From: a virus | Virus genome (UHGV): UHGV-1558343 | Reading direction: 5' to 3' (one strand) | Length of the DNA stretch: 30,962 nt | Part shown: one piece after another, positions 7,428-27,467 of the stretch | Position numbering within the stretch: the stretch's first letter is position 1 | Layout: each line of letters opens with the position of its first letter | The notes under the pieces: model-generated | The model's input: only the letters and a program-made list of their open reading frames with translations | Told to the model about the DNA's origin: nothing | Databases searched by the model: none | Position numbers and translations under genes: made by a program

Positions 7428-7503
7428 TGGAGAATCCGAAGGGACTCGAACCCTTATAAACCTGTTTTGCAGACAGGTACATATCCATTTCTGTCACGGA
7501 TTC
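7428..7503 (-). tRNA. tRNA-Cys(GCA)
   Basis: cloverleaf folded by hand; T-loop TTCGAGT, anticodon loop CUGCAAA, 7-bp acceptor stem, CCA encoded. Confidence 0.8.
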
Positions 7504-7507
7504 AAAT

Positions 7508-7600
7508 TGGAGGAAGATACCAGACTTGAACTGGTACACCGATTTCTCAGCTACTGGCAGTTTAGCAAACTGCTCCCTTACCTTTTAGGGTTAATCTTCC
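7508..7600 (-). tRNA. tRNA-Ser(GCU), class II
   Basis: 93 nt; perfect 7-bp acceptor stem GGAAGAT/ATCTTCC; anticodon loop UUGCUAA; long variable arm; CCA encoded. Confidence 0.8.
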
Positions 7601-7601
7601 A

Positions 7602-8336
7602 TTATTTCTGTAATGCGCTCTTCATTTCTGGTGTTGCAATAGTGTCAATCACACCAGTTTTACAAGCATCATCAAACCAGTCTGGTAAGATACCTGCTAA
7701 GAACCCATTGATATTCGTTTTAAGGTACTCTGCAATAAGGGCAGCTTCTTCTTCAATCATCTGCACAACTTCATCTGCATAAGCTGTAATCTTCGAAATA
7801 CCTTCATTAATCTTACTAACAGCTTGGTTAGCTAAATCAGAAATAGTATCAAGACCTTTGTCAATAGCATCTTGTAAGTCACTTAATACATCATTAACAC
7901 CATCTAGTGCGCTGTTAATCGTATCCATAGCTTTTTGACCATACTCTGTAGCAACACCCATAATACCACTAAATGGTGTACAGCCAACTTGCTCCCCTGC
8001 TGCACCCATAACATTAGAATAGCCTTTTGCTACCTGCATACGTGAGGAAAACTCATCAATGGACTTTTGACCATAATCTGTCAGTGTCTTAGTAGTTGAT
8101 GTAGTGCTTGTCAGACTCGTTGTAAAGCTGTTAAGCAGAACTGTTGTAAGTCCAGCAGCAACAAGTTTATCTTTTATTGTAGGGTCTGTTACAGAACTAA
8201 TAGAGCTTACAAGTGATGTAGAGGCAGATACGGTTCCACCGAGAACTGCTGCACCAGTAATAAGTGGGTTAGAAAACCCTTTACCGGTTTTTAAGAGATT
8301 AAAAATCTCCTTACCTTGTTCTGTCATCTCTTTCAT
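7602..8336 (-). CDS. hypothetical Ser/Thr-rich protein embedded in tRNA array
   Basis: ORF 7602..8399 in track; first about 20 codons overlap tRNA-Phe on the same strand, so an internal Met start is likelier; exact start uncertain. Confidence 0.45.
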   Translation of the reverse strand: MKEMTEQGKEIFNLLKTGKGFSNPLITGAAVLGGTVSASTSLVSSISSVTDPTIKDKLVAAGLTTVLLNSFTTSLTSTTSTTKTLTDYGQKSIDEFSSRMQVAKGYSNVMGAAGEQVGCTPFSGIMGVATEYGQKAMDTINSALDGVNDVLSDLQDAIDKGLDTISDLANQAVSKINEGISKITAYADEVVQMIEEEAALIAEYLKTNINGFLAGILPDWFDDACKTGVIDTIATPEMKSALQK

Positions 8337-8352
8337 TAAGCACCTTTGAAAT

Positions 8353-8429
8353 TGGTAGTCCAGTGGGATTTGAACCCTCTTCTCATGTTTTTCAGACACG
8401 CGCTTTAACCATATAAGCTACTTGGACTA
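8353..8429 (-). tRNA. tRNA-Phe(GAA)
   Basis: T-loop TTCAAAT, anticodon loop CUGAAAA; acceptor pairing TAGTCCA/TGGACTA; exact 3' end ambiguous. Confidence 0.7.
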
Positions 8430-8434
8430 TAAAT

Positions 8435-8510
8435 TGGGGTGACCTACGGGATTTGAACCCGTATAGACCATGTTCACAGCATGGGTCATTACCGTTTATG
8501 ATAAGGCCAC
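8435..8510 (-). tRNA. tRNA-His(GUG)
   Basis: anticodon stem CCATG/CATGG, loop CUGUGAA; T-loop TTCAAAT; CCA encoded. Confidence 0.8.
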
Positions 8511-8541
8511 ATTTAAGGACTCTCGTAAGAACCCTTAGAAG

Positions 8542-8617
8542 TGGCAGCGGCATAAGGATTTGAACCTTAATAGGACAGCTTCAGAGACTGTTGCATTGCC
8601 AGTTATGCTATACCGCT
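8542..8617 (-). tRNA. tRNA-Gln(CUG)
   Basis: D-stem GCAT/ATGC, anticodon loop CUCUGAA, T-loop TTCAAAT, CCA encoded. Confidence 0.7.
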
Positions 8618-8622
8618 AAATT

Positions 8623-8701
8623 TGGTACTCCATATCGGATTCGAACCGATACATAACACAGATTTTAAGTCTGGCCTCTCTGCCAATTGGAGTAATGGAG
8701 C
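8623..8701 (-). tRNA. tRNA with anticodon UAA (Leu-type anticodon; short variable arm)
   Basis: T-arm ATCGG/TTCGAAT/CCGAT; anticodon loop CUUAAAA; acceptor GCTCCAT/ATGGAGT; A73; no long variable arm. Confidence 0.6.
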
Positions 8702-8703
8702 AT

Positions 8704-8779
8704 TGGCGGGGGATGTTGGAATTGAACCAACTTCTTCGATTTCAAAGACCGAGGTTTTAACCTTGTAAACTAATCCCCT
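8704..8779 (-). tRNA. tRNA-Gln(UUG)
   Basis: anticodon stem TCGGT/ATCGA, loop CUUUGAA; T-loop TTCAATT; CCA encoded; 1:72 mismatch. Confidence 0.65.
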
Positions 8780-8787
8780 TTAAATCT

Positions 8788-9345
8788 TTACTTTCTCAGT
8801 GGATGAATAAAGAATGCCAACATAACTCTTTCCCTTGAGAATGCTCTTTCTTCTGGGACAACACTTTTAAGTTTCCATCCAACATAAATTCTCCAGTAAA
8901 ACTGTTTACCAAAGACTTTAATTGATGGGATAAAAGCGAATAACCCCCAAGCATTACTGTTCCACATTAGGAGATAACCAGTCTGATTATCTTCAGGGTT
9001 AGAGCTTACGTTGATATTACCTTTCCACTTAGTAACATCTTTTACATCTCTTCCTAATACATGGTAAGAGAAGTTATAAGCTTTGTTTCTCCAGAGCCAT
9101 CCAACTCTCTGCATGTAGACACCCAGCTTACCAATCTTTCTAATCTTAGCCCATCTTTTAACGTGGCCTTCATCACCATCAATTGGGTTGTCATAGGTCT
9201 CCATCCATCTGAATCCAAAAGGTAGATGTCCTTTCTTCTCACTGTAGAATGGAACTACGAAAGGTGCTAAGATAACTGCTAGGGTTGCTGCAAATGGTTC
9301 TAACAAAGCTAAGAAAATCCATGAAACATATTTTAAGTATCTCAT
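8788..9345 (-). CDS. hypothetical protein with N-terminal hydrophobic segment, embedded in tRNA array
   Basis: 185 aa ORF with ATG and AAGAGG SD; N-terminus WIFLALLEPFAATLAVILAPFVVPF is hydrophobic; Trp-rich. Confidence 0.5.
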   Translation of the reverse strand: MRYLKYVSWIFLALLEPFAATLAVILAPFVVPFYSEKKGHLPFGFRWMETYDNPIDGDEGHVKRWAKIRKIGKLGVYMQRVGWLWRNKAYNFSYHVLGRDVKDVTKWKGNINVSSNPEDNQTGYLLMWNSNAWGLFAFIPSIKVFGKQFYWRIYVGWKLKSVVPEERAFSRERVMLAFFIHPLRK

Positions 9346-9365
9346 CTAAATAGCCTCTTAAAAAA

Positions 9366-9441
9366 TTGGTGCAGGATAAGGGATTCGAACCCCTATTAAC
9401 AGCTTCGTAGACTGTTGCTCTATCCATTTGAACTAATCCTG
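9366..9441 (-). tRNA. tRNA-Arg(ACG)
   Basis: acceptor GCAGGAT/ATCCTGC; anticodon loop CUACGAA; T-loop TTCGAAT; CCA encoded. Confidence 0.8.
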
Positions 9442-9540
9442 CTTACCTACGAGAACACCATACAGTTTTTCACAAACTTTGTTTTTACGTCTGTTTAGAT
9501 ATGAAGCTCTAAACTTTTTTGCGATGGACTTATTACTCAT
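9432..9540 (-). CDS. possible small basic protein (35 aa)
   Basis: ATG at 9538-9540 with AGGAG SD; translates MSNKSIAKKFRASYLNRRKNKVCEKLYGVLVGKQD; 3' end overlaps tRNA-Arg by about 10 nt. Confidence 0.3.
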
Positions 9541-9556
9541 AGTGCTCTCCTAAAAT

Positions 9557-9634
9557 TGGTGTTCCAAGACGGATTCGAACCGTCACTAATACAAGGTTTG
9601 AGCTTGCATCCTCTGCCAATTGGGATACTGGAAC
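9557..9634 (-). tRNA. tRNA with anticodon CAA (Leu-type anticodon; short variable arm)
   Basis: acceptor GTTCCAG/TTGGAAC; anticodon stem GCAAG/CTTGT, loop CUCAAAC; T-loop TTCGAAT; A73; CCA encoded. Confidence 0.6.
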
Positions 9635-9635
9635 A

Positions 9636-9710
9636 TGGTACTCACTAAAGGACTTGAACCTTTTTCTTCATCTTGTAAGGGTGATGTTTTACCATATAAA
9701 CTAAGCGAGT
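9636..9710 (-). tRNA. tRNA-Val(UAC), tentative
   Basis: acceptor ACTCGCT/AGTGAGT; anticodon loop CUUACAA with one C-A mismatch in the stem; T-loop TTCAAGT. Confidence 0.6.
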
Positions 9711-9805
9711 GTGAAAGAGGTCTGAAGTTGTGCCGCTAACTCAACTCCGTGGAATTTGTTACGGTCTTCAGTTGACACCAGCGGTCTTTCACTTGACCTC
9801 TGAAT

Positions 9806-9882
9806 TGGTGCTGCTCACAGGACTCGAACCTGCATTTCCATCCTTACAAGGGATGTGTAATAGCCAATTATACGAAAGCAGC
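9806..9882 (-). tRNA. tRNA-Thr(UGU)
   Basis: anticodon stem CATCC/GGATG perfect, loop CUUGUAA; T-loop TTCGAGT; CCA encoded. Confidence 0.8.
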
Positions 9883-9888
9883 ATTATT

Positions 9889-9963
9889 TGGAACATCCAG
9901 AGGGAATCGAACCCTCAACCTCAGTTTGGAAGACTGTAATTTTCCCGTTTAAACTATGGATGC
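9889..9963 (-). tRNA. tRNA-Gly(UCC)
   Basis: anticodon loop CUUCCAA; T-arm GAGGG/TTCGATT/CCCTC; CCA encoded. Confidence 0.75.
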
Positions 9964-9969
9964 ACTAAT

Positions 9970-10045
9970 TGGTGGAGAAGCAGGGAATTGAACCCTGTAC
10001 TTAAGTTTGCAAAACTTATGTTTTAACCATGTAAACTACATCCCC
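9970..10045 (-). tRNA. tRNA-Ala(UGC)
   Basis: D-stem GTTT/AAAC; anticodon stem TAAGT/ACTTA, loop UUUGCAA; T-loop TTCAATT; CCA encoded. Confidence 0.75.
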
Positions 10046-10051
10046 AATGTT

Positions 10052-10127
10052 TGGTACAGGTGGAGGGAATTGAACCCGTCGTCTTACTGATTAAGAGTCA
10101 GCCGCATAACCATTTTGCTACACCTGC
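10052..10127 (-). tRNA. tRNA-Lys(CUU), tentative
   Basis: anticodon stem GCTGA/TCAGT (one GU), loop CUCUUAA; T-loop TTCAATT; CCA encoded. Confidence 0.6.
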
Positions 10128-10134
10128 ATTAATT

Positions 10135-10212
10135 TGGTAGGAGACAAGGGATTCGAACCCTCAAACATCTCGTTCTAAGCGAGATAGGTTTACCAATTAC
10201 CGTCAATCTCCC
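10135..10212 (-). tRNA. tRNA with anticodon UAG (Leu-type anticodon; short variable arm)
   Basis: anticodon stem TCTCG/CGAGA perfect, loop CUUAGAA; T-loop TTCGAAT; A73; CCA encoded; variable region only 5 nt. Confidence 0.6.
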
Positions 10213-10293
10213 ATTAAATCTTTTTAGAGAACTTCTAAGAACCTAAGCAACAAGGTTCCACAACAAGCTGTAATAACCTTAGAAGCCCTCTAA

Positions 10294-10313
10294 AAAGACC
10301 TAAAAAGGTCTTT
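10294..10313. other. AT-rich hairpin inside a 258-nt tRNA-free spacer
   Basis: AAAGACC-TAAAAA-GGTCTTT palindrome; spacer 10213-10470 has no T-loop motif but several other inverted repeats. Confidence 0.4.
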
Positions 10314-10470
10314 GCATAGTCTTGTTTAATCCGGTGACTAGAACCTTTGGAGAGCTTGATACTATCTCTTCTCCGTGACACCTACTAGGTGCTTTATAGT
10401 CGTGCCGTGTACGCCAATACACGAGTAAAAACCGAGCTTGTTAGACGAGCGCGGGAATTAAATCTTATTA

Positions 10471-10560
10471 GGCGGTAAGTAAAGGAGTCGAACCCTCACC
10501 GTATCTCTACAGTGGCAACTGTTTTCAAGACAGTTTGGCTACCATTAGCCGCTACCTACC
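10471..10560 (-). tRNA. tRNA-Ser(UGA), class II
   Basis: 90 nt; anticodon stem ACTGT/ACAGT, loop CUUGAAA; long variable arm; acceptor GGTAGGT/ACTTACC. Confidence 0.75.
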
Positions 10561-10573
10561 CCTAATAAGACTT

Positions 10574-10656
10574 TGGCATGGGACGGAGGAGTTGAACCCC
10601 TTTGAAACGGTGTTGGAAGCCGTTGCTCATGCCTTAGAGTCTTAACATCGTCCCAT
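10574..10656 (-). tRNA. tRNA-Trp(CCA) with enlarged D region
   Basis: perfect acceptor ATGGGAC/GTCCCAT; anticodon loop UUCCAAC; T-loop TTCAACT; about 27 nt between anticodon stem and acceptor where about 20 are expected. Confidence 0.6.
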
Positions 10657-10799
10657 ACTATAATTCGAAGCTTACTGTATTATCTCAACACTGTAAAGCC
10701 CCTTCTCAGATTATTTACATGTTCTGGAAAACATGAGATACAGACCACCTCCCTACAGGAAGACCCGCTAAGGTCGTCTAAGTAATCTGCTAACTAAAT

Positions 10800-10881
10800 T
10801 GGTCGAGGCGGCAGGACTCGAACCCGCATACTCCACTTACTCGGTTAACGGCTGTTTAGAAGACAGCTGAGATACGCCCCG
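10800..10881 (-). tRNA. atypical tRNA-like gene, anticodon UCU (Arg-type); no recognisable D-arm
   Basis: T-arm GCGGG/TTCGAGT/CCTGC; acceptor CGGGGCG/CGCCTCG; anticodon arm GCTGT-CUUCUAA-ACAGC; only 7 nt between acceptor and anticodon stem; 23 nt between anticodon stem and T-stem. Confidence 0.5.
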
Positions 10882-11128
10882 TAATTATCTTTAAAGACTC
10901 TCTTAGAAAGCCCTTAAAGATGCCCACCTTATTAATCATACCGTGGGCTAGTACGCCAAATTCTTTGATGAGGGATTGGAAGACCTCACTGGTGTTTAGC
11001 CTATCAAGCTACTGCCAGAAAAACATTGTCGTTTGCATTTATTTTAAATTTGCAAAATAGACGCTACGCAACGAAAACTAAGGTTACTATAAAGTAGTCA
11101 CATCTCAATGTCAACAACTTTTTGAAAT

Positions 11129-11204
11129 TGGTACTGTGAGAAGGATTTGAACCTTCTGCCTTTCGGTTATCAGCCGAATGCACATCCATATGTGCTTTCA
11201 CAGC
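11129..11204 (-). tRNA. tRNA-Ile(GAU)
   Basis: anticodon stem TTCGG/CCGAA perfect, loop CUGAUAA; T-loop TTCAAAT; CCA encoded. Confidence 0.8.
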
Positions 11205-11683
11205 ATTGTTACCCCTTCGTGTACTTCTCTGTGGCAATTTGCACAAAGCAAGACACACTTATCAACTTCAGACTGCATTGTAGCCAGTGAGTAGTGTTTT
11301 TTACTTACTGTGAAGTCTTTTGTCTTAGGGTCTAAGTGGTGAAACTCTAGAGCCTTTGTGCACCTATTGTAACCACAAATTGAACAACAACCACCCTTGT
11401 AATCAACTAAAGCCTTCTTCAGTCTGTCACGAGACTTTTTAACGTGCAGTGATTTGGCTTTGCTTTTTTCATGATGGGTCTTATGTTTTTTCATGACTCC
11501 ACCTGCAATACATTCGTCACAGTATTTTCTCGCTTTTGGCGTTACCTTTCCGCATGAATGGCAAGAGCCTTCCTGACTTCTCTTTGGGTGTTTCTTGTTG
11601 TTCACTTTTGCAGAACAAGAGCGTGAGCAAAATTTTCCACCTTTAACGGCTTCATTTCCGCAACCTTTGTTAGCACAAATCAT
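11198..11683 (-). CDS. HNH homing endonuclease
   Basis: multiple CxxC pairs plus FHHLDP and CANCHREVH motifs near C-terminus; ATG at 11681-11683 with AGGTGA SD; lies between tRNA genes. Confidence 0.85.
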   Translation of the reverse strand: MICANKGCGNEAVKGGKFCSRSCSAKVNNKKHPKRSQEGSCHSCGKVTPKARKYCDECIAGGVMKKHKTHHEKSKAKSLHVKKSRDRLKKALVDYKGGCCSICGYNRCTKALEFHHLDPKTKDFTVSKKHYSLATMQSEVDKCVLLCANCHREVHEGVTML

Positions 11684-11700
11684 AAGTATCACCTATAAAT

Positions 11701-11777
11701 TGGAGGTTCAGATGGGAATCGAACCCACATTCATAGGGCTTATGAGACCCTTGCATTACCTTATCTGCGACTGAACC
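11701..11777 (-). tRNA. tRNA-Met(CAU) (elongator Met, fMet or Ile-lysidine not distinguishable)
   Basis: acceptor GGTTCAG/CTGAACC perfect; anticodon loop CUCAUAA; T-loop TTCGATT; CCA encoded. Confidence 0.75.
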
Positions 11778-11781
11778 ATAT

Positions 11782-11857
11782 TGGTAGAAGTGGAGGGATT
11801 CGAACCCATCGCCTGTCAGATTAAAAGTCTGCCGCATCACCATTCTGCTACACTTCC
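11782..11857 (-). tRNA. tRNA-Lys(UUU)
   Basis: anticodon loop CUUUUAA; T-arm ATGGG/TTCGAAT/CCCTC; CCA encoded. Confidence 0.7.
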
Positions 11858-11863
11858 ATTAAA

Positions 11864-12001
11864 TTATCTTTGTAGATAAGCTACCCAGACTTGCTTAAGG
11901 TCTGTAGCGATGTGTCTTTTCGGGTTAAATCTAGAATCTACCCTTCCACCTTTGTGGTCGCATACTCACAGGTAAGCTTAATAACTTATCTACAAAGATA
12001 A
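11864..12001. repeat. perfect 17-bp inverted repeat flanking about 100 nt of hairpin-rich spacer
   Basis: TTATCTTTGTAGATAAG at 11864-11880 and its exact reverse complement CTTATCTACAAAGATAA at 11985-12001; each arm is itself palindromic. Confidence 0.7.
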
Positions 12002-12052
12002 TTACCAGACCGTTGTTTATCATCTTAAGTGCTACCATTACACCAACTCGAC

Positions 12053-12101
12053 ATCTGCCGAGTGAAGGAATCGAACCTTCGCCTTTTCTTTACCGGAGAA
12101 A
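12053..12101 (-). pseudogene. tRNA 3' fragment (T-arm plus anticodon arm, anticodon GGU Thr-type); 5' half missing
   Basis: T-arm GAAGG/TTCGATT/CCTTC and anticodon arm TTTCT-CCGGUAA-AGAAA present; no sequence downstream pairs with acceptor 3' strand ACTCGGC; no CCA. Confidence 0.45.
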
Positions 12102-12116
12102 TAGATTGTTTAAGTT

Positions 12117-12143
12117 TTGCTGTAAACGGTCTTCTGTAAATTT
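12117..12143. repeat. tRNA-spacer repeat copy 1 (TTGCTGTAAACGGTCTTCTGTAAATTT)
   Basis: 27-bp element identical to copy at 13048-13074; sits where the 5' half of the tRNA fragment would be. Confidence 0.75.
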
Positions 12144-12202
12144 GTTGAGCCAGACCAAGTTTTAAATTTTTCAAAATTAAATTGGCTTGAAATTTTAAGT
12201 AA

Positions 12203-12227
12203 CTTGCTGTATTTGGTCTTCTGCTCC
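12203..12227. repeat. tRNA-spacer repeat, degenerate copy
   Basis: CTTGCTGTATTTGGTCTTCTGCTCC shares the TTGCTGTA..GGTCTTCTG core. Confidence 0.55.
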
Positions 12228-12284
12228 TTTAAAGGATACTCGTAAGAACCCTTTAATGGAGGGGCTAAATAGCCCTCTCAAAAT

Positions 12285-12360
12285 TGGCGAGGTATGCGAG
12301 AATCGAACTCGCGGCTCAGGAGAGACAATCCCGTATTTTACCCGTCTAAACTAATACCCC
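12285..12360 (-). tRNA. tRNA-Asp(GUC)
   Basis: anticodon loop UUGUCUC; T-arm GCGAG/TTCGATT/CTCGC; acceptor GGGGTAT/ATACCTC; CCA encoded. Confidence 0.7.
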
Positions 12361-12364
12361 AAAT

Positions 12365-12793
12365 TCATGTACCATTTCTTAGATACTTCTTCCTACGTCT
12401 TTCTGGACTATAGTTTCTTCTACTCTCAGCATTCTTAGCCAGCCTACACTCATCGCATCTACAGCCTTTAAAATAGCTATACGCAGTTCCGTGTTTAATT
12501 GTTTTATGTTTTCTTTCACTTATCTGTGCTGGTCTTGCTGCTTTCATGTTACATTTAAGATGACTATAAGAAATATTATCTAGTGAAAAGAAAAGCTCTT
12601 TTGCATTCTCACTATGTCTCCACGGAATCTTATGCTCGATAGAGAAATCATCCCTAGTCATTTCTTTTCCGCACTGAAAACATCTATTTTGATTTGTCTT
12701 ACATATAAAATCGAATAGCAAATCTTTTACTAGTCTGTTTTGTGCAGTTCCCAAACTCATACCAAGTTGTGATTTGTATACTTCATCTCTCAT
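12365..12793 (-). CDS. HNH homing endonuclease
   Basis: CFQCG ... EHKIPW ... HLKCN motif set; C-terminal Cys/Arg-rich segment GCRCDECR; ORF track start overlaps tRNA-Tyr so internal ATG at 12791-12793 is proposed. Confidence 0.8.
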   Translation of the reverse strand: MRDEVYKSQLGMSLGTAQNRLVKDLLFDFICKTNQNRCFQCGKEMTRDDFSIEHKIPWRHSENAKELFFSLDNISYSHLKCNMKAARPAQISERKHKTIKHGTAYSYFKGCRCDECRLAKNAESRRNYSPERRRKKYLRNGT

Positions 12794-12815
12794 AACTAAG
12801 TATCTCGCTAAGTGT

Positions 12816-12903
12816 TGGTGTGCCGTGTAGGAGTCGAACCTACCGAGTCTCAATGACAAGGGATTTACAGTCCCCACCGCTACCATCTACGGGATAACGA
12901 CAC
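12816..12903 (-). tRNA. tRNA-Tyr(GUA), class II
   Basis: 88 nt; anticodon loop CUGUAAA; long variable region; acceptor GTGTCGT/ACGGCAC; CCA encoded. Confidence 0.75.
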
Positions 12904-12915
12904 ATTTCAATTTTG

Positions 12916-12989
12916 CGGTTAGTCAGGGATTCGAACCCTGTGCCATTCGCTTAACAGGCGACCGCACATACCTTATGTGCTTCCTAACC
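12916..12989 (-). tRNA. tRNA-Asn(GUU)
   Basis: D-arm GCAC-9nt-GTGC; anticodon loop CUGUUAA; T-loop TTCGAAT; CCA not encoded. Confidence 0.75.
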
Positions 12990-13047
12990 ATGTTTAGTAT
13001 TACCAGACCGTATCTTTCAATTTTTTCCGCTAAAAATTTAATAAATA

Positions 13048-13074
13048 TTGCTGTAAACGGTCTTCTGTAAATTT
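13048..13074. repeat. tRNA-spacer repeat copy 2 (TTGCTGTAAACGGTCTTCTGTAAATTT)
   Basis: exact 27-bp duplicate of 12117-12143; abuts the 3' end of the tRNA at 13074. Confidence 0.75.
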
Positions 13075-13150
13075 GGAGGCGGGTGCAGGAGTCGAACCTG
13101 CCGATACCATGCTAATGAGACATGTGAGACGCCCTTTCTCTATACCCGCA
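13074..13150 (-). tRNA. tRNA with anticodon CAU (Met or Ile-lysidine), tentative
   Basis: anticodon loop CUCAUUA; D-arm GAGA-7nt-TCTC; acceptor with 1:72 mismatch; CCA encoded. Confidence 0.6.
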
Positions 13151-13213
13151 ATTCTTAATGACCAGACCAAATCTCTTCTTTGTCCGATTTACCTTCAGAT
13201 GAATAAGATTAAG

Positions 13214-13240
13214 TTTGCTGTAATTGGTCTTCTGTCAAAA
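13214..13240. repeat. tRNA-spacer repeat, degenerate copy
   Basis: TTTGCTGTAATTGGTCTTCTGTCAAAA directly beside the 3' end of tRNA-Glu. Confidence 0.6.
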
Positions 13241-13241
13241 C

Positions 13242-13319
13242 TGGCGTTCCAGAAGGGATTTGAACCCTCAGATATCCACTTTGAAAGAGTGGTGACTATA
13301 CCATTTTGTCTACTGGAAC
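13242..13319 (-). tRNA. tRNA-Glu(UUC)
   Basis: perfect acceptor GTTCCAG/CTGGAAC; anticodon stem CCACT/AGTGG perfect, loop CUUUCAA; CCA encoded. Confidence 0.8.
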
Positions 13320-13326
13320 ATTAATT

Positions 13327-13403
13327 TGGTCTCTGTTGGAGGACTTGAACCTCCGGCCTTACCGCCCCAAACGGAACGCTCTACCAAGCTGAGCTAAACA
13401 GAG
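13327..13403 (-). tRNA. tRNA-Pro(UGG)
   Basis: classic D-arm GCTCAGCTTGGTAGAGC; anticodon loop UUUGGGG; T-loop TTCAAGT; perfect acceptor; CCA encoded. Confidence 0.8.
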
Positions 13404-13527
13404 ATAAACTTTTCAAACTCTATGTAACCACTTTAACATTATTTTTTAGTGGTTGTCAAGAACTTTTTTAAAATATTTTTCAGTATCTTAGAAAAGCTCT
13501 CATTTCGTTTCTATGTAGAACATATTA

Positions 13528-13557
13528 AAGGGTATCAAACACATTGTCAATACCCTT
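13528..13557 (-). terminator. hairpin just downstream of the vWA gene stop
   Basis: AAGGGTAT - 14 nt loop - ATACCCTT inverted repeat, 12 nt past the stop codon at 13569. Confidence 0.5.
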
Positions 13558-13568
13558 TTTAAAACTTT

Positions 13569-14984
13569 TTACCAGATGTAACGGTCAATCATTACTGCTT
13601 TGAGCATTACGCTGATTGGGTCAAACTTCTCACCACCAAGCAGAGCTTTTAAAGTGGCTGGAGAGAAACCAGATACCATTGCTACACCGTTATCCTTAAC
13701 AGATACTTCGCAAGTTCCATTACGGTTTGCTAAGTACCAAAATACTAGTTGTGGCATATCATATCCAGCTTTTTTGTACTTACTCTGAATTGCTTCAAAG
13801 TTTGTACGACCGTTAGCCCCATCAACCTGATTGAACTCCATATCGGAGAAGATGATAAGCTTACTTGGCATATCTTTCTGAGTCAAGTTGTTTCTTTTAC
13901 CTGTCTCAAGAATACGGTCAAAAGCCACTTGTAAGTTAGTTGAGCCATATTCAACGTTTCGCATCACCTGACGATGACGGTTTCGTAAATCACCACTCAG
14001 TTCGATGAAGTGAGGGTTTGTTGAATAAACCATCAACTCATTCTTAAAGCAACCTGTATTGCGTTCTGCTACATACAAGGCAAGTGATACACCAATATCA
14101 AGGGCGGTGATTGAGCCAAGATTCACCCAAGACATTGAGCTTGAAACATCAGTCATACACAAGATGTTTTCACCTTCTGCCATCCAGTTTGGTAGTGCTT
14201 TCCACTGCTCATTGGCAACATCTGCATTACCATGCTTAACAGATTTAATCACATCGTATGGGTAAACAGCACCAGCATTAATCTTAGCCTCACCCTTTGA
14301 TAAGGACTCAATGTAAGCTTTGTAGCGTTCTCCATCTTTACGGTTAAACAGTTTTTGGTAACGTGCAGCAGCAAGTGAAGGAATCTTACTGTAGTCAATC
14401 TTACCAAACTCATTAGCAGAGATTTTTTGCTCAACTGTATCAGATAGTGCAGACAACAGTGTGCGGTACTCTTTCTCGCTTAAGTTTGCAAACTTACAGA
14501 AACGTTTTACAAACTGTTTGTGGCGTGGTTTTACTCGTGGCAACCACTTAGCTGCTAAACCTGCTGTTGCAGGGTCTAGTAATGCTGCTTCTAAATGTTT
14601 GAAGGCATCTGTCTCGAAACGAGTACCTACGAAGATTTTGAAGTCATCAAAACGACCAAGTTCTGCAATCTTATCCATAATGCGAAGAACCTGTGTAGGC
14701 TCTAAAACTTTATCTTCAATCGCTTGAAGTAAAACAGTTCTGAAAGCTTTACGCTCACCCATACCTTCTCGTACATCTCGCATGTGAAGCAAAATACGAA
14801 CTGCAACATCAACATCCTCACGCAAAGCTTTGTAGAACAAGTCTGGTAAGATTTCTACATTGCTACGGCTGGAACCAGCAGCTTTGTAAAAGTCCACAAG
14901 AGCAGACATTGATGAAGTATGGTTTACAGCACCATTTTCAGTTCGACCTGCATGAAGGTGCGCATGTTTAAATAATTCGCTCAT
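13569..14984 (-). CDS. von Willebrand factor A (vWA) domain protein with MIDAS motif, DUF2828-like
   Basis: 471 aa; DVSSS (DxSxS) MIDAS motif in C-terminal half; N-terminal GRTENGA motif; largely helical N-terminal region; family assignment from memory. Confidence 0.65.
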   Translation of the reverse strand: MSELFKHAHLHAGRTENGAVNHTSSMSALVDFYKAAGSSRSNVEILPDLFYKALREDVDVAVRILLHMRDVREGMGERKAFRTVLLQAIEDKVLEPTQVLRIMDKIAELGRFDDFKIFVGTRFETDAFKHLEAALLDPATAGLAAKWLPRVKPRHKQFVKRFCKFANLSEKEYRTLLSALSDTVEQKISANEFGKIDYSKIPSLAAARYQKLFNRKDGERYKAYIESLSKGEAKINAGAVYPYDVIKSVKHGNADVANEQWKALPNWMAEGENILCMTDVSSSMSWVNLGSITALDIGVSLALYVAERNTGCFKNELMVYSTNPHFIELSGDLRNRHRQVMRNVEYGSTNLQVAFDRILETGKRNNLTQKDMPSKLIIFSDMEFNQVDGANGRTNFEAIQSKYKKAGYDMPQLVFWYLANRNGTCEVSVKDNGVAMVSGFSPATLKALLGGEKFDPISVMLKAVMIDRYIW

Positions 14985-15066
14985 ATTTTACTCTCTTCTC
15001 TCATTTTGTTTGTTGATGTGACAGACTTTAGAGCAACTTTGTAGAGTCTGTCAACACCTTTTAAAA

Positions 15067-27194: not shown

Positions 27195-27467
27195 TTATGC
27201 TAAATGCAGCTTTTTACCTTTTACCATGATGTAACTTGTTGCGCTATTGCTGTATACATCTTGATAAATTCTGCGCAAACGGCCTTCGTAGTATACTTTC
27301 CAGCTAGTTGGAATCTTTTTCCCGTATCCTGTAACAGTTTTTTGGAGTCCTGCAAGTTGCCAATCCAAGATGTGTTGCTCAGCTTGTAAATCTTCAAAGT
27401 GCATCACACCATTCACATAGTGACGTAGGGTTACGTTTAAAGTGCGACCGTTGTTAGTAGCATACAT
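27195..27467 (-). CDS. hypothetical protein
   Basis: 90 aa, ATG after a type A cassette. Confidence 0.6.
   Translation of the reverse strand: MYATNNGRTLNVTLRHYVNGVMHFEDLQAEQHILDWQLAGLQKTVTGYGKKIPTSWKVYYEGRLRRIYQDVYSNSATSYIMVKGKKLHLA

What the first reader, a model, noticed from the sequence alone, without database searches (positions are those of the whole stretch)
7428..13403. Array of about 27 tRNA genes covering nearly all 20 amino acids, with embedded HNH endonucleases
Hand-folding gives anticodons for Cys, Ser (two), Phe, His, Gln (two), Arg, Val, Thr, Gly, Ala, Lys (two), Trp, Ile, Met/CAU (two), Asp, Tyr, Asn, Glu and Pro, plus three Leu-type anticodons and an Arg-type tRNA-like gene. 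All are on the minus strand and most encode CCA. Two HNH homing endonuclease genes and two or three other ORFs sit between tRNAs, a layout known from T5-like tRNA regions. A near-complete set implies substantial translational autonomy from the host.
Basis: partly seen in the sequence, partly recalled or inferred. Interest (0 to 1): 0.55.

Follow-up and report, generated by a model that had tools for sequence, protein, structure and literature searches.

The report
Felix O1 tRNA array with hidden RNAs
The tRNA gene array is real but is the already published tRNA region of Felix O1-like phages; the news is that its unannotated gaps hold four small RNAs that look like partners of the Ro60-like protein encoded next door, plus two odd tRNA-like genes and a tmRNA-like tag element.

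Summary
Observation confirmed. ARAGORN finds 25 tRNA genes, all on the minus strand, at 7428-13403. Two HNH genes are confirmed.

The window is a Felixounavirus, 97.5% identical to Escherichia phage L27, not a T5-like phage. Its tRNA cluster was published in 2010, so the finding as stated is already known.

The new part lies in the unannotated gaps. Four elements (13160-13232, 13001-13065, 12148-12221, 12003-12134) share a 7-bp terminal helix, an invariant ACAGCAA two bases after its 5' strand, and an invariant G after its 3' strand. One of them encloses a permuted tRNA-like module, as YrlA does.

A covariance model built almost entirely from distant phages finds only these four in the window. 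In 75 uncultured viral loci it gives 50 hits, all on the strand of a DUF2828 gene and 41 within 500 nt of it. The window's DUF2828 protein (13569-14984) has a predicted Ro60 fold.

The same architecture and motif define Dictyostelium Class I RNAs.

Also present is a tmRNA-like tag element that reads ANDNVFLAVA**.

The RNA-protein binding and every function proposed here are inferred, not shown.

The parts
13569..14984 (-). Ro60-like protein gene (Pfam DUF2828 + DUF7788; PHROG 850 'RNA-binding protein'), directly upstream of the array
   Evidence: Pfam; PHROGs. AF2 model has pLDDT 88 and pTM 0.88. Foldseek matches full-length Ro60 structures (9kop, 9l5y, 2i91, 1yvp, 9nep, 2nvo) at E 3e-8 to 4e-6. 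The MIDAS residues D279, S281, S283, T349 and D381 are invariant.
13430..13550 (-). Two sigma70-like promoters (TTGACA-17-TAATAT at 13550-13522; TTGACA-18-TAAAGT at 13459-13430) ahead of tRNA-Pro
   Evidence: Consensus scan. This is a pattern match only.
13327..13403 (-). tRNA-Pro(UGG)
13242..13319 (-). tRNA-Glu(UUC)
13160..13232 (-). Y1: short ACAGCAA-type Y-RNA-like gene
   Evidence: Model R2 gives 35.7 bits, E 1.4e-5. Helix and motif geometry.
13074..13150 (-). tRNA(CAU), atypical: U1-C72 mismatch, one extra base before the D stem, U37
   Evidence: Found by ARAGORN but not by Rfam. Sequence. Cove score 28.9 in Felix O1 (PMC3185647).
13001..13065 (-). Y2: short ACAGCAA-type Y-RNA-like gene
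   Evidence: R2 gives 42.3 bits, E 4.6e-7. It is the top window hit of R1, which contains no Ounavirinae sequence (17.9 bits).
12915..12989 (-). tRNA-Asn(GUU), no encoded CCA
12816..12903 (-). tRNA-Tyr(GUA), long variable arm
   Evidence: ARAGORN. About 85-87% identical to tRNA-Tyr of T4-like and T5-like phages.
12365..12793 (-). HNH endonuclease gene (the ORF can be read up to 12886); absent at this site in Felix O1 and garuso
   Evidence: Pfam HNH; phrog_23251 at E 9.9e-80; synteny.
12285..12360 (-). tRNA-Asp(GUC)
12148..12221 (-). Y3: short ACAGCAA-type Y-RNA-like gene
   Evidence: R2 gives 33.2 bits, E 4.9e-5.
12003..12134 (-). Y4: long form. Inside the terminal helix lie a V hairpin, a T arm (GAAGG-UUCGAUU-CCUUC), an acceptor-like hairpin and a D arm, the YrlA topology.
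   Evidence: R2 gives 27.6 bits, E 8.9e-4. MFE folds. The acceptor-like hairpin is replaced but kept in Suspvirus and Mooglevirus. Rfam tRNA partial hit of 22 bits.
11860..12005 (-). Structured RNA of unknown kind (22-bp closing stem)
   Evidence: Fold z-score -6.0; inverted repeat I2.
11782..11857 (-). tRNA-Lys(UUU)
11701..11777 (-). tRNA(CAU), second copy (elongator Met or Ile2, unresolved)
11198..11692 (-). HNH endonuclease gene; overlaps tRNA-Ile by 7 nt
   Evidence: phrog_2255 at E 1.9e-36. Homolog of Felix O1 ORF44.
11129..11204 (-). tRNA-Ile(GAU)
11086..11114 (-). sigma70-like promoter TTGACA-17-TATAGT
   Evidence: 11 of 12 matches; pattern only
10915..11050 (-). tmRNA-like element: tag frame ANDNVFLAVA** (11036-11001), a hairpin holding the stop codons, and a pseudoknot
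   Evidence: Rfam tmRNA hit is weak (15.4 bits, E 0.004).
10800..10881 (-). D-armless Arg(UCU) tRNA-like gene, ends ACCA
   Evidence: Alignment with Felix O1, Justusliebigvirus and a Streptomyces phage shows covariation in three stems and an invariant loop CUUCUAA. Rfam tRNA-Sec hit of 23.3 bits.
10666..10797 (-). Conserved structured spacer of unknown kind
   Evidence: 92-99% conserved across genera; fold z-score -3.4.
10574..10656 (-). Non-canonical Trp(CCA) tRNA-like gene: A1-U72, G73, CCA end, 10-nt connector before a 3-bp D stem
   Evidence: Covariation in the anticodon, T and D stems; fold z-score -2.9.
10471..10560 (-). tRNA-Ser(UGA), no encoded CCA
10213..10310 (-). Long hairpin RNA of unknown kind
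   Evidence: Fold z-score -5.8; inverted repeat I1.
9806..10212 (-). tRNA-Leu(UAG) 10135-10212, Lys(CUU) 10052-10127, Ala(UGC) 9970-10045, Gly(UCC) 9889-9963, Thr(UGU) 9806-9882
9711..9805 (-). Conserved structured spacer of unknown kind
   Evidence: 96-100% conserved across genera; fold z-score -3.0.
9367..9710 (-). tRNA-Val(UAC) 9636-9710, Leu(CAA) 9557-9634, a 35-codon ORF 9433-9540 (phrog_13848), Arg(ACG) 9367-9442
   Evidence: The 114-nt segment holding the ORF is absent in garuso.
8788..9345 (-). ORF, DUF7338, function unknown
8353..8779 (-). tRNA-Gln(UUG) 8704-8779, Leu(UAA) 8623-8701, Gln(CUG) 8542-8617, His(GUG) 8435-8510, Phe(GAA) 8353-8428
7602..8336 (-). ORF, DUF7217, function unknown
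7428..7600 (-). tRNA-Ser(GCU) 7508-7600 and tRNA-Cys(GCA) 7428-7503, the end of the array

Best explanation
This is the tRNA gene region of a Felix O1-like myovirus (Felixounavirus). It holds 25 canonical tRNA genes and two conserved non-canonical ones, a Trp-CCA gene with an aberrant D region and a D-armless Arg-UCU gene. All are read on the minus strand, downstream of a Ro60-like protein gene and from sigma70-like promoters. Free-standing HNH endonuclease genes sit at sites that differ between close relatives.

Shown:
- the genes, their conservation and the covariation in their stems;
- the mobility of the HNH genes.

Inferred:
- The tRNAs top up decoding of the phage's AT-rich codons. AGA, for example, makes up 46% of Arg codons in the window's ORFs.
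- They keep translation going when host tRNAs are depleted or cut.

The array is more than tRNAs. Four gaps encode small RNAs of one family. Each has a 7-bp helix joining its ends, a single-stranded ACAGCAA two bases after the 5' strand of the helix, and a G after the 3' strand. Three are about 60-70 nt. The fourth carries a permuted tRNA-like module (V, T, acceptor-like and D arms), as bacterial YrlA Y RNAs do.

I infer that cleavage of the flanking tRNAs releases these RNAs from the polycistronic transcript. I also infer that they bind the adjacent Ro60-like protein through the helix-ACAGCAA module, forming a phage Ro-Y RNP. That RNP would act on RNA quality control or counter-defence; the orthologous protein of phage Bas63 was reported to counter the ppl defence system. 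The binding and the function are both inferred, not shown.
For: Identity of the region:
- 315 phage records match and 141 cover at least 80% of the query. The best is Escherichia phage L27 at 97.5%.
- Felix O1 and garuso carry the same 25 tRNAs.
- The Felix O1 tRNA cluster is published (PMC3185647).

tRNAs. Non-canonical Trp. Non-canonical Arg. Codon usage. HNH genes. HNH positions differ between the window, Felix O1, garuso, mistaenkt and Sf18.

Ro60-like fold.

RNA family:
- In 31 elements from 10 phage lineages the helix is paired in 217 of 217 cells. 93 cells show changes on both sides, against 22 in shuffles. Slid registers pair at only 28-41%.
- ACAGCAA and the 3' G are invariant.
- Model R1, built without any Ounavirinae sequence, ranks Y2 first in the window.
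- Model R2 finds only Y1-Y4 in 31 kb, at 27.6-42.3 bits; the next best hit scores 16.4.
- In 75 independent IMG/VR loci R2 gives 50 hits at E <= 0.1. All 50 are on the DUF2828 gene's strand, in 39 loci, and 41 lie within 500 nt of the gene.
- The long forms fold to the YrlA topology. Relatives of the long form score 34-45 bits against Rfam YrlA.

Bas63 gp130 is Ro60-like and counters ppl (PMC11482910).
Against: - There are no expression, processing or binding data for any of the new RNAs.
- The window's Y4 does not reach any Rfam YrlA score, and the YrlA 5' motif GNCGAAN0-1G is absent.
- The elements used for the covariation count were collected with a scanner that demanded a helix, and the 3' register was chosen to maximise pairing. 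The 100% pairing is therefore partly built in; the fixed offset and the invariant G were not imposed.
- One DUF2828 phage (Vibrio, L007) and 36 of the 75 IMG/VR loci gave no hit within the flanks searched.
- tRNA function of the Trp-like and Arg-like genes is untested, and both have abnormal D regions.
- The promoters are consensus matches that are not enriched over shuffled sequence.
Confidence: 0.8

Rival explanations
1. The array is only a codon-usage patch of tRNAs, as originally described for Felix O1. The conserved gaps would be processing spacers, terminators or decayed tRNA pseudogenes with no function of their own.
For: Whichard et al. linked 7 tRNAs to codons the phage favours. Phage GC3 is 33%. 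Y4 contains tRNA-like arms that could be read as two decayed tRNA halves. Fold z-scores of Y1-Y3 taken alone are weak, -0.6 to -1.6.
Against: The same helix-ACAGCAA-G module recurs next to DUF2828 genes in phages of Proteobacteria, Campylobacter, Actinobacteria and Firmicutes. The helix sequences differ but always pair. In unrelated viral contigs 50 of 50 hits lie on the gene's strand. Spacers and pseudogenes would not keep an invariant single-stranded heptamer at a fixed offset across phyla. The gaps are 86-99% conserved between genera whose Ro60-like proteins are only 84-88% identical.
Confidence: 0.12
2. The main role of the tRNA set is counter-defence. The phage tRNAs would replace, or resist, host tRNAs that are cut by anticodon nucleases, retron effectors or PARIS-type systems. 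The Ro60-like RNP and the tmRNA-like element would belong to the same RNA-damage response.
For: DUF2828 genes sit beside tRNA clusters and RNA ligase genes (RtcB, Rnl2) in several phages. Bas63 gp130 counters a defence system, and the Bas63 tRNAs look conditionally useful. tRNA-Tyr is shared at about 85% identity across unrelated phage families, which suggests selection for that particular tRNA. The set has two Lys and two Gln isoacceptors.
Against: Nothing in the sequence shows nuclease resistance. Anticodon-loop differences from host tRNAs were not analysed here. ppl is proposed to be a DNA-degrading system, not a tRNA nuclease. This reading is compatible with the best explanation rather than exclusive of it.
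Confidence: 0.35
3. The ACAGCAA elements are DNA-level signals, such as homing-endonuclease targets, recombination sites or promoter/operator repeats, and not RNAs.
For: They are repeated, lie in a region rich in mobile HNH genes, and the HNH insertion sites vary between relatives.
Against: The strand bias is absolute (50 of 50). Compensatory changes preserve an RNA helix that includes two G-U cells. One copy per genome often encloses a tRNA-like fold. HNH genes are absent next to many copies in other phages.
Confidence: 0.03

Closest known systems
tRNA gene cluster of Salmonella phage Felix O1 and other Ounavirinae (Whichard et al. 2010, PMC3185647)
   Same: Same genes in the same order between the Ro60-like gene and the terminase gene, at 92-98% nucleotide identity.
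   Different: The published count was 22 tRNAs. ARAGORN gives 25 in Felix O1 as well. The window lacks Felix O1 HNH ORF45 and ORF47 and has an HNH gene between Asp and Tyr instead. The Y-like RNAs, the Trp-like and Arg-like genes and the tmRNA-like element are not annotated in the records examined.
T4 and T5 tRNA clusters with homing endonucleases
   Same: tRNA genes are clustered with free-standing homing endonuclease genes, for example SegB between the T4 clusters (as cited in PMC5587285). Other small stable RNAs lie in the T4 cluster (own knowledge).
   Different: There is no sequence relationship apart from tRNA-Tyr at about 85%. The phage family is different.
Bacterial and phage Ro60-Y RNA systems: YrlA/YrlB (Chen et al. 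2014, PMC4201824) and Thermus phage phiLo Ro60 with Yrl1 and Yrl2 (PMC12135203)
   Same: A Ro60-fold protein is encoded next to several small RNAs on the same strand. The ends of each RNA pair into a helix. One RNA carries a permuted tRNA-like domain in the order V-T-AS-D, and shorter paralogs lack it.
   Different: The protein matches Pfam DUF2828/DUF7788, not TROVE, and is only 11-16% identical to solved Ro60 structures. The RNA motif is ACAGCAA rather than GNCGAAN0-1G or CGAA. Rfam YrlA scores stay below the gathering threshold. The RNAs are embedded in a tRNA array.
Dictyostelid Class I RNAs (Rfam RF01414; Kjellin et al. 2021, PMC7919456)
   Same: Both are about 60 nt long, with a short helix joining the 5' and 3' ends. 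CCUUACAGCAA directly follows the 5' strand, so ACAGCAA starts 9 nt after the outermost pair, as in the phage RNAs. The middle is variable, the 3' end reads C-U-G(U), and there are many paralogs. RF01414 is the only Rfam family that hits the phage RNAs as a whole.
   Different: Scores are 12.8-29.8 bits against a gathering score of 41.5. The helix is 6 bp rather than 7, and one extra base precedes the 3' G. These are eukaryotic genes with their own promoter element. The known partner protein is the RRM protein Rnp1A, and no Ro60-like partner is known. Convergence or chance is not excluded.
tmRNA (SsrA)
   Same: The element at 10915-11050 has a tag-like frame ANDNVFLAVA with a double stop, preceded by AAUAAAU. 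The stops sit in a hairpin and are followed by a pseudoknot supported by compensatory changes. The E. coli tag is ANDENYALAA (own knowledge).
   Different: No tRNA-like domain with G3-U70 was found around it. ARAGORN at default settings and Rfam at gathering scores do not call a tmRNA. The predicted promoter leaves only about 42 nt before the resume-like codon.

Membership tests
Bacterial-type tRNA genes (Rfam RF00005 / ARAGORN) | Cloverleaf scoring above the curated threshold | tested here: met
   25 by ARAGORN and 23 by RF00005 at 33-63 bits. The Trp-like and Arg-like genes fail both tools.
Bacterial-type tRNA genes (Rfam RF00005 / ARAGORN) | Mature, aminoacylated tRNA present in infected cells | not testable with these tools
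   Needs small-RNA sequencing and acid-gel Northern blots.
Felix O1-type (Ounavirinae) tRNA region | Nucleotide identity and gene order between the Ro60-like gene and the terminase gene | tested here: met
T5-like tRNA region | Sequence or synteny relationship to T5-like phages | tested here: not met
   The matches covering most of the region are Ounavirinae (Escherichia, Salmonella, Shigella and Citrobacter phages). T5-like phages match only tRNA-Tyr and tRNA-Ser segments.
Ro60 / TROVE proteins | HEAT-repeat ring plus a vWA domain with a MIDAS motif | tested here: met
   Foldseek matches over the full length to Ro60 structures, TM 0.5-0.65. The DxSxS, T and D residues are invariant.
Ro60 / TROVE proteins | Sequence-level match to TROVE or to solved Ro60 chains | tested here: not met
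   Pfam gives DUF2828 + DUF7788 only. phmmer against PDB sequences finds no Ro60.
YrlA Y RNA (RF02553) | Encoded within 4 kb of the Ro60 gene on the same strand | tested here: met
   Y1-Y4 lie 0.3-1.6 kb downstream of 13569-14984 on the same strand.
YrlA Y RNA (RF02553) | tRNA-like domain (V, T, AS, D) enclosed by a helix formed by the RNA ends | tested here: met
   Y4 fold. The AS hairpin covaries between genera.
YrlA Y RNA (RF02553) | GNCGAAN0-1G motif near the 5' end | tested here: not met
   The 5' region reads GAAGACCGUUUACAGCAA. The motif is defined in PMC4201824.
YrlA Y RNA (RF02553) | Rfam gathering score of 69 bits | tested here: not met
   No YrlA hit to Y4 at E <= 10. Relatives in other phages score 28-45 bits.
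Dictyostelid Class I RNA (RF01414) | Short terminal helix, the adjacent CCUUACAGCAA motif and a 3' CUGU | tested here: inconclusive
   The helix and (U)UACAGCAA are present at the same 9-nt offset. The 3' end reads CUGG in the window and CUGU in Aeromonas and Listeria phages. The CC of the motif is absent.
Dictyostelid Class I RNA (RF01414) | Rfam gathering score of 41.5 bits | tested here: not met
   12.8-20.5 bits in the window and 25.7-29.8 bits in Aeromonas phage LAh_8.
tmRNA | Tag reading frame with a resume codon and stop, ending in a hydrophobic degron-like tail | tested here: met
   ANDNVFLAVA** is conserved as a peptide in four phage lineages through synonymous and conservative changes.
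tmRNA | Alanine-accepting tRNA-like domain (G3-U70, T arm, CCA) joined to the tag domain | tested here: not met
   None found. ARAGORN at default settings calls no tmRNA. Rfam scores of 15-23 bits are below the gathering score of 47.

The most novel reading that the evidence does not exclude
The helix-ACAGCAA-G RNAs are the dedicated Y-RNA-like partners of a separate DUF2828 branch of Ro60-like proteins that is widespread in tRNA-rich phages. Dictyostelid Class I RNAs share the terminal helix, the UUACAGCAA motif at the same offset, the C-U-G 3' end, the size and the multicopy nature. Their function has been open since 2004 and they are described as unique to Dictyostelia. On this reading they belong to the same kind of RNP, which predicts a DUF2828/Ro60-like binding protein in amoebae, and perhaps in plants, which do have DUF2828 genes.
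Probability: 0.3. Interest if true: 0.85.

Novelty: new variant of a known kind. Interest (0 to 1): 0.6.

Why it matters
The tRNA array itself adds nothing new; it is the published Felix O1 cluster.

What matters is what its unannotated gaps contain.

1. Candidate partner RNAs for the Ro60-like protein. In a close relative this protein was recently reported to counter a bacterial defence system, and the authors could only guess that some 'tRNAs' might be Y RNAs. The four elements found here turn that guess into a testable RNP.

2. A recognisable RNA signature. The helix, ACAGCAA and the 3' G mark DUF2828 genes across phages of four bacterial phyla. This gives a handle on a large protein family of unknown function.

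3. A possible link to Dictyostelium Class I RNAs, which share the same signature. This suggests a concrete hypothesis for their protein partner.

4. Gaps in standard annotation. Two conserved non-canonical tRNA-like genes and a tmRNA-like tag element show that standard tRNA finders under-report what these arrays encode.

Tried and rejected
- T5-like origin: rejected by similarity searches.
- Rfam YrlA membership for Y4: no hit even in a 161-nt search.
- MAFFT on full-length elements put the 3' strands out of register. I used equal-length trimmed sequences instead and then rebuilt the model from Infernal's own alignment.
- R1, built from the trimmed alignment, penalised the natural middle lengths and scored only Y2 well.
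- The Foldseek AFDB50 library was unavailable, so I could not ask whether Dictyostelium or plants have structural homologs of this protein.
- The Chen 2014 supplementary phage table, the Avesson 2011 paper and the Sim 2020 review were not held. I therefore cannot say whether Felix O1 was among Chen's 22 phages, or what the other three Class I-binding proteins are.
- I looked for a tRNA-like domain for the tmRNA-like element and found none. The Arg-like RNA has G3-U70 and A73 in Felixounavirus but G3-C70 in Justusliebigvirus, so I do not propose it as that domain. ARAGORN's relaxed 'permuted tmRNA' calls borrow neighbouring tRNA arms and are not convincing.
- The identity of the two CAU tRNAs (initiator, elongator Met or Ile2) could not be settled from sequence.
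- A weak R2 hit at 27222-27264 (15.6 bits, E 0.42) was not counted.

Full report
**Observation**

ARAGORN reports 25 tRNA genes between 7428 and 13403, all on the minus strand. Their anticodons are Cys, Ser x2, Phe, His, Gln x2, Leu x3, Arg(ACG), Val, Thr, Gly, Ala, Lys x2, Ile, CAU x2, Asp, Tyr, Asn, Glu and Pro.

Rfam's tRNA model passes 23 of them at 33-63 bits. It misses the type-II Tyr and the CAU tRNA at 13074-13150. Twenty-three of the 25 encode the 3' CCA.

*Trp-like gene, 10574-10656.* It has a perfect 7-bp acceptor stem with A1-U72, discriminator G73, an encoded CCA, a T arm and an anticodon loop that presents CCA. Across Felixounavirus, Suspvirus and Mooglevirus copies several stems covary:
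- the anticodon stem changes from AACGG/CCGUU to GUAAG/CUUAC;
- the T stem changes G-C to U-A;
- a 3-bp D-like stem changes CUC/GAG to CAC/GUG.

Its oddity is a 10-nt connector between the acceptor stem and the D stem.

*Arg(UCU)-like gene, 10800-10881.* It has acceptor and T arms and an anticodon hairpin with the invariant loop CUUCUAA, but no D arm. Homologs sit inside the tRNA arrays of Felix O1, a Justusliebigvirus and a Streptomyces phage. In these homologs:
- the acceptor, anticodon and T stems all covary;
- a short helix flanking the anticodon arm changes from CUC/GAG to CGC/GCG.

In Mooglevirus and Suspvirus the same slot holds an unrelated, canonical tRNA-Arg(UCU). AGA is the commonest Arg codon in the window's ORFs, at 127 of 279.

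The count of 27 and coverage of all 20 amino acids therefore stand.

The two HNH genes are confirmed. So are the other ORFs: DUF7217, DUF7338 and a 35-codon ORF.

**What the region is**

The 6.3-kb segment matches 315 phage records. The best is Escherichia phage L27 at 97.5%, and Felix O1 matches at 96%. The neighbours are the same as in Felix O1, with the large terminase subunit on one side and an 'RNA-binding protein' gene on the other. Felix O1 and garuso carry the same 25 ARAGORN tRNAs.

The cluster was described in 2010 with 22 tRNAs, together with a codon-usage argument (PMC3185647). It is therefore not T5-like. Only tRNA-Tyr resembles T5-like and T4-like phage tRNAs, at about 85%.

HNH genes occupy different slots in different relatives, as expected for mobile endonucleases.

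Promoter-like sites with a perfect TTGACA lie at 15054, 13550, 13459 and 11114 on the minus strand. These are pattern matches only and are not enriched over shuffled sequence.

**The gaps are conserved**

BLAST of each inter-tRNA gap against Suspvirus and Mooglevirus loci gives 86-99% identity. The Ro60-like proteins of those phages are only 84-88% identical to the window's. Several gaps fold far better than shuffled sequence, with z-scores of -6.0, -5.8, -3.4 and -3.0.

**A repeated RNA**

Four gaps share the pattern GAAGACC-NN(N)-UACAGCAA ... NN-GGUCUGG. The fourth, at 12003-12134, folds into a closing helix that contains, in order:
- a small hairpin;
- a T arm, GAAGG-UUCGAUU-CCUUC;
- an abutting hairpin;
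- a D arm with a GG loop.

This is the V-T-AS-D order that defines YrlA Y RNAs (PMC4201824).

**The neighbouring protein**

The ORF at 13569-14984 matches Pfam DUF2828 and DUF7788. It has no sequence-level hit to any solved Ro60 chain.

An AlphaFold2 model built from 31 homologs has pLDDT 88 and pTM 0.88. By Foldseek it matches full-length Ro60 from Xenopus, human, Deinococcus and Thermus phage phiLo, at E 3e-8 to 4e-6 and TM 0.5-0.65. The MIDAS residues of the vWA domain are invariant.

A 2024 preprint found the ortholog in the Felixounavirus Bas63 (gp130) to be Ro60-like and to counter the ppl defence system. Its authors speculated that some downstream 'tRNAs' might be Y RNAs (PMC11482910). 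They identified none.

**The RNA travels with the protein**

tblastn finds the protein in 710 phage genomes from many host phyla, often beside tRNA clusters and RNA ligase genes.

In the following phages, tandem copies of helix-ACAGCAA-variable-helix-G lie directly next to the gene on its strand:
- Aeromonas LAh_8
- Campylobacter CJLB-7
- Mycobacterium phage Nicholas
- Listeria vB_Liva_VAfA18
- Sinorhizobium phiM7
- Bacillus Nate
- Enterococcus phiSHEF13
- Staphylococcus S-CoN_Ph5

In several of these, one copy carries the tRNA-like module. Those long copies hit Rfam YrlA below threshold, at 28-45 bits against a gathering score of 69.

I aligned 31 elements on the motif. This showed:
- base pairs at offsets -3 to -9 in all 31;
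- no pairing beyond chance at offsets -1, -2, -10 and -11;
- G as the base after the 3' strand in all 31.

The pair-counting tool gave 217 of 217 cells paired. Ninety-three cells had changes on both sides, against 22.4 +/- 5.4 in shuffles. Slid registers paired at only 28-41%.

One caveat applies. The elements were collected with a helix filter and the register was chosen for best pairing. The constant offset and the invariant G were not imposed.

**Independent tests with covariance models**

Model R1 was built from 20 elements of distant phages and no Ounavirinae sequence. It ranks Y2 first in the window and finds the Suspvirus and Mooglevirus Y2 copies at E 0.005 and 0.04.

Model R2 was rebuilt from Infernal's alignment of 22 hits, 21 of them from distant phages. 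In the 31-kb window it gives exactly four significant hits:

| Element | Bits | E-value |
|---|---|---|
| Y2 | 42.3 | 4.6e-7 |
| Y1 | 35.7 | 1.4e-5 |
| Y3 | 33.2 | 4.9e-5 |
| Y4 | 27.6 | 8.9e-4 |
| next best hit | 16.4 | 0.28 |

I then fetched 75 uncultured viral loci that encode a 38-47% identical protein. In these, R2 gives 50 hits at E <= 0.1. All 50 are on the gene's strand, they fall in 39 loci, and 41 lie within 500 nt of the gene.

**Likely mechanism (inferred)**

Y1 and Y2 are each bracketed by tRNAs at distances of 8-11 nt. RNase P and the 3' processing of the neighbouring tRNAs would therefore free them. By analogy with Ro60-Y RNA systems, the helix plus ACAGCAA plus G would be the protein-binding module. 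The tRNA-like domain of Y4 would then recruit a tRNA-recognising or RNA-decay enzyme.

Known phage Y RNAs use a CGAA-type motif. This one is different, in step with the divergent protein.

**Link to Dictyostelium**

The only Rfam family that hits these RNAs as a whole is Dicty_Class_I_RNA. It scores 12.8-20.5 bits in the window and 25.7-29.8 bits in the Aeromonas phage, against a gathering score of 41.5.

Published Class I RNAs share the following features. An example is DdR-21, GUUGACCUUACAGCAA...GUCAACUG.
- A 6-bp terminal helix.
- ACAGCAA starting 9 nt after the outermost pair, the same offset as in the phage RNAs.
- A variable middle.
- A 3' end reading C-U-G(U).
- A length of about 60 nt.
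- Many paralogs.

They are reported as unique to Dictyostelia and their mechanism is unknown. I could not test whether Dictyostelium encodes a DUF2828 protein. Shared ancestry, convergence on a similar protein, or coincidence all remain open.

**The tmRNA-like element**

The segment at 10915-11050 reads GCA AAC GAC AAU GUU UUU CUG GCA GUA GCU UGA UAG, which translates to ANDNVFLAVA**.

The peptide is kept through synonymous and conservative changes in Suspvirus, Mooglevirus, a Kuttervirus (ANDNTFLAVA*) and a Klebsiella siphovirus (ANEEMYLAVA*).

The RNA structure around it is also conserved:
- the stop codons lie in a hairpin;
- the next hairpin covaries;
- the loop of that hairpin pairs with a downstream tetramer, CCAA/UUGG. 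This pairing is compensated as CCGA/UCGG and as CCAG/CUGG in the two distant phages.

No tRNA-like domain was found. Standard tmRNA detectors do not call it, and no paper on it turned up.

**Verdict**

The finding as written is correct in observation and ordinary in kind. The region nevertheless holds unannotated RNA genes. They form a new variant of the Ro60-Y RNA system with good comparative support and an unexpected resemblance to an unexplained eukaryotic RNA class.

Noticed in passing
window 10915-11050 (-); L003 about 10990-11120; L004 about 10655-10790; L097 1150-1340 (-); L098 1150-1360 (-): A tmRNA-like tag element. The frame ANDNVFLAVA** has its stops in a hairpin, followed by a covarying hairpin and a pseudoknot. 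It is conserved in Ounavirinae, a Kuttervirus and a Klebsiella siphovirus. No tRNA-like domain was found, and standard tools do not call it.
   Followed up: partly
window 10800-10881 (-); L015 about 1501-1584; L016 about 1501-1563: A D-armless tRNA-like RNA with the invariant loop CUUCUAA (anticodon UCU) is shared by Felixounavirus, Justusliebigvirus and a Streptomyces phage, always inside a tRNA array. The Felixounavirus copy has G3-U70 and A73, which are alanine identity elements (own knowledge).
   Followed up: partly
window 11860-12005 (-), 10213-10310 (-), 9711-9805 (-), 10666-10797 (-): Four further inter-tRNA segments are highly conserved across genera or fold much better than shuffles (z-scores -6.0, -5.8, -3.0, -3.4). 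None matches an Rfam family. Their nature is unknown.
   Followed up: no
window 13074-13150 (-): This tRNA(CAU) has a U1-C72 mismatch, an extra base before the D stem and a pyrimidine (U) at position 37. Rfam misses it. It is unclear whether it is an initiator-like tRNA, an elongator or a decayed gene.
   Followed up: partly
L006 2949-3065 (Aeromonas phage LAh_8): A tRNA scoring 49 bits against Rfam carries an insertion of about 45 nt in its anticodon region, and the insertion contains UUACAGCAA. This looks like an unpermuted fusion of a tRNA and the Y-like motif.
   Followed up: no
L010 3427-3978 (Listeria phage); L013 1-227 (Enterococcus phage): A ROOL-like RNA (89.8 bits, gathering score 99.1) lies just upstream of the Listeria phage's Y-like RNAs and DUF2828 gene. 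A bona fide tmRNA (60.2 bits) lies upstream of the Enterococcus phage's tRNA and Y-RNA region.
   Followed up: no
window 12816-12903 (-): tRNA-Tyr is 83-87% identical to tRNA-Tyr genes of T4-like, T5-like and rV5-like phages. This suggests that this tRNA is exchanged or selected across phage families.
   Followed up: no
window 9443-9556 (-): A 114-nt segment between tRNA-Leu(CAA) and tRNA-Arg(ACG) holds a 35-codon ORF (phrog_13848) whose end overlaps the tRNA. It is present in the window and in Felix O1 but absent in garuso.
   Followed up: partly
Supplement of PMC7919456, file 56: The Class I RNA authors' own outgroup scan lists an Arabidopsis candidate scoring 40 bits, UGUUUUCAUUACAGCAA...GAAAACUG. 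Papers found here report DUF2828 genes in several plants. This was not pursued.
   Followed up: no
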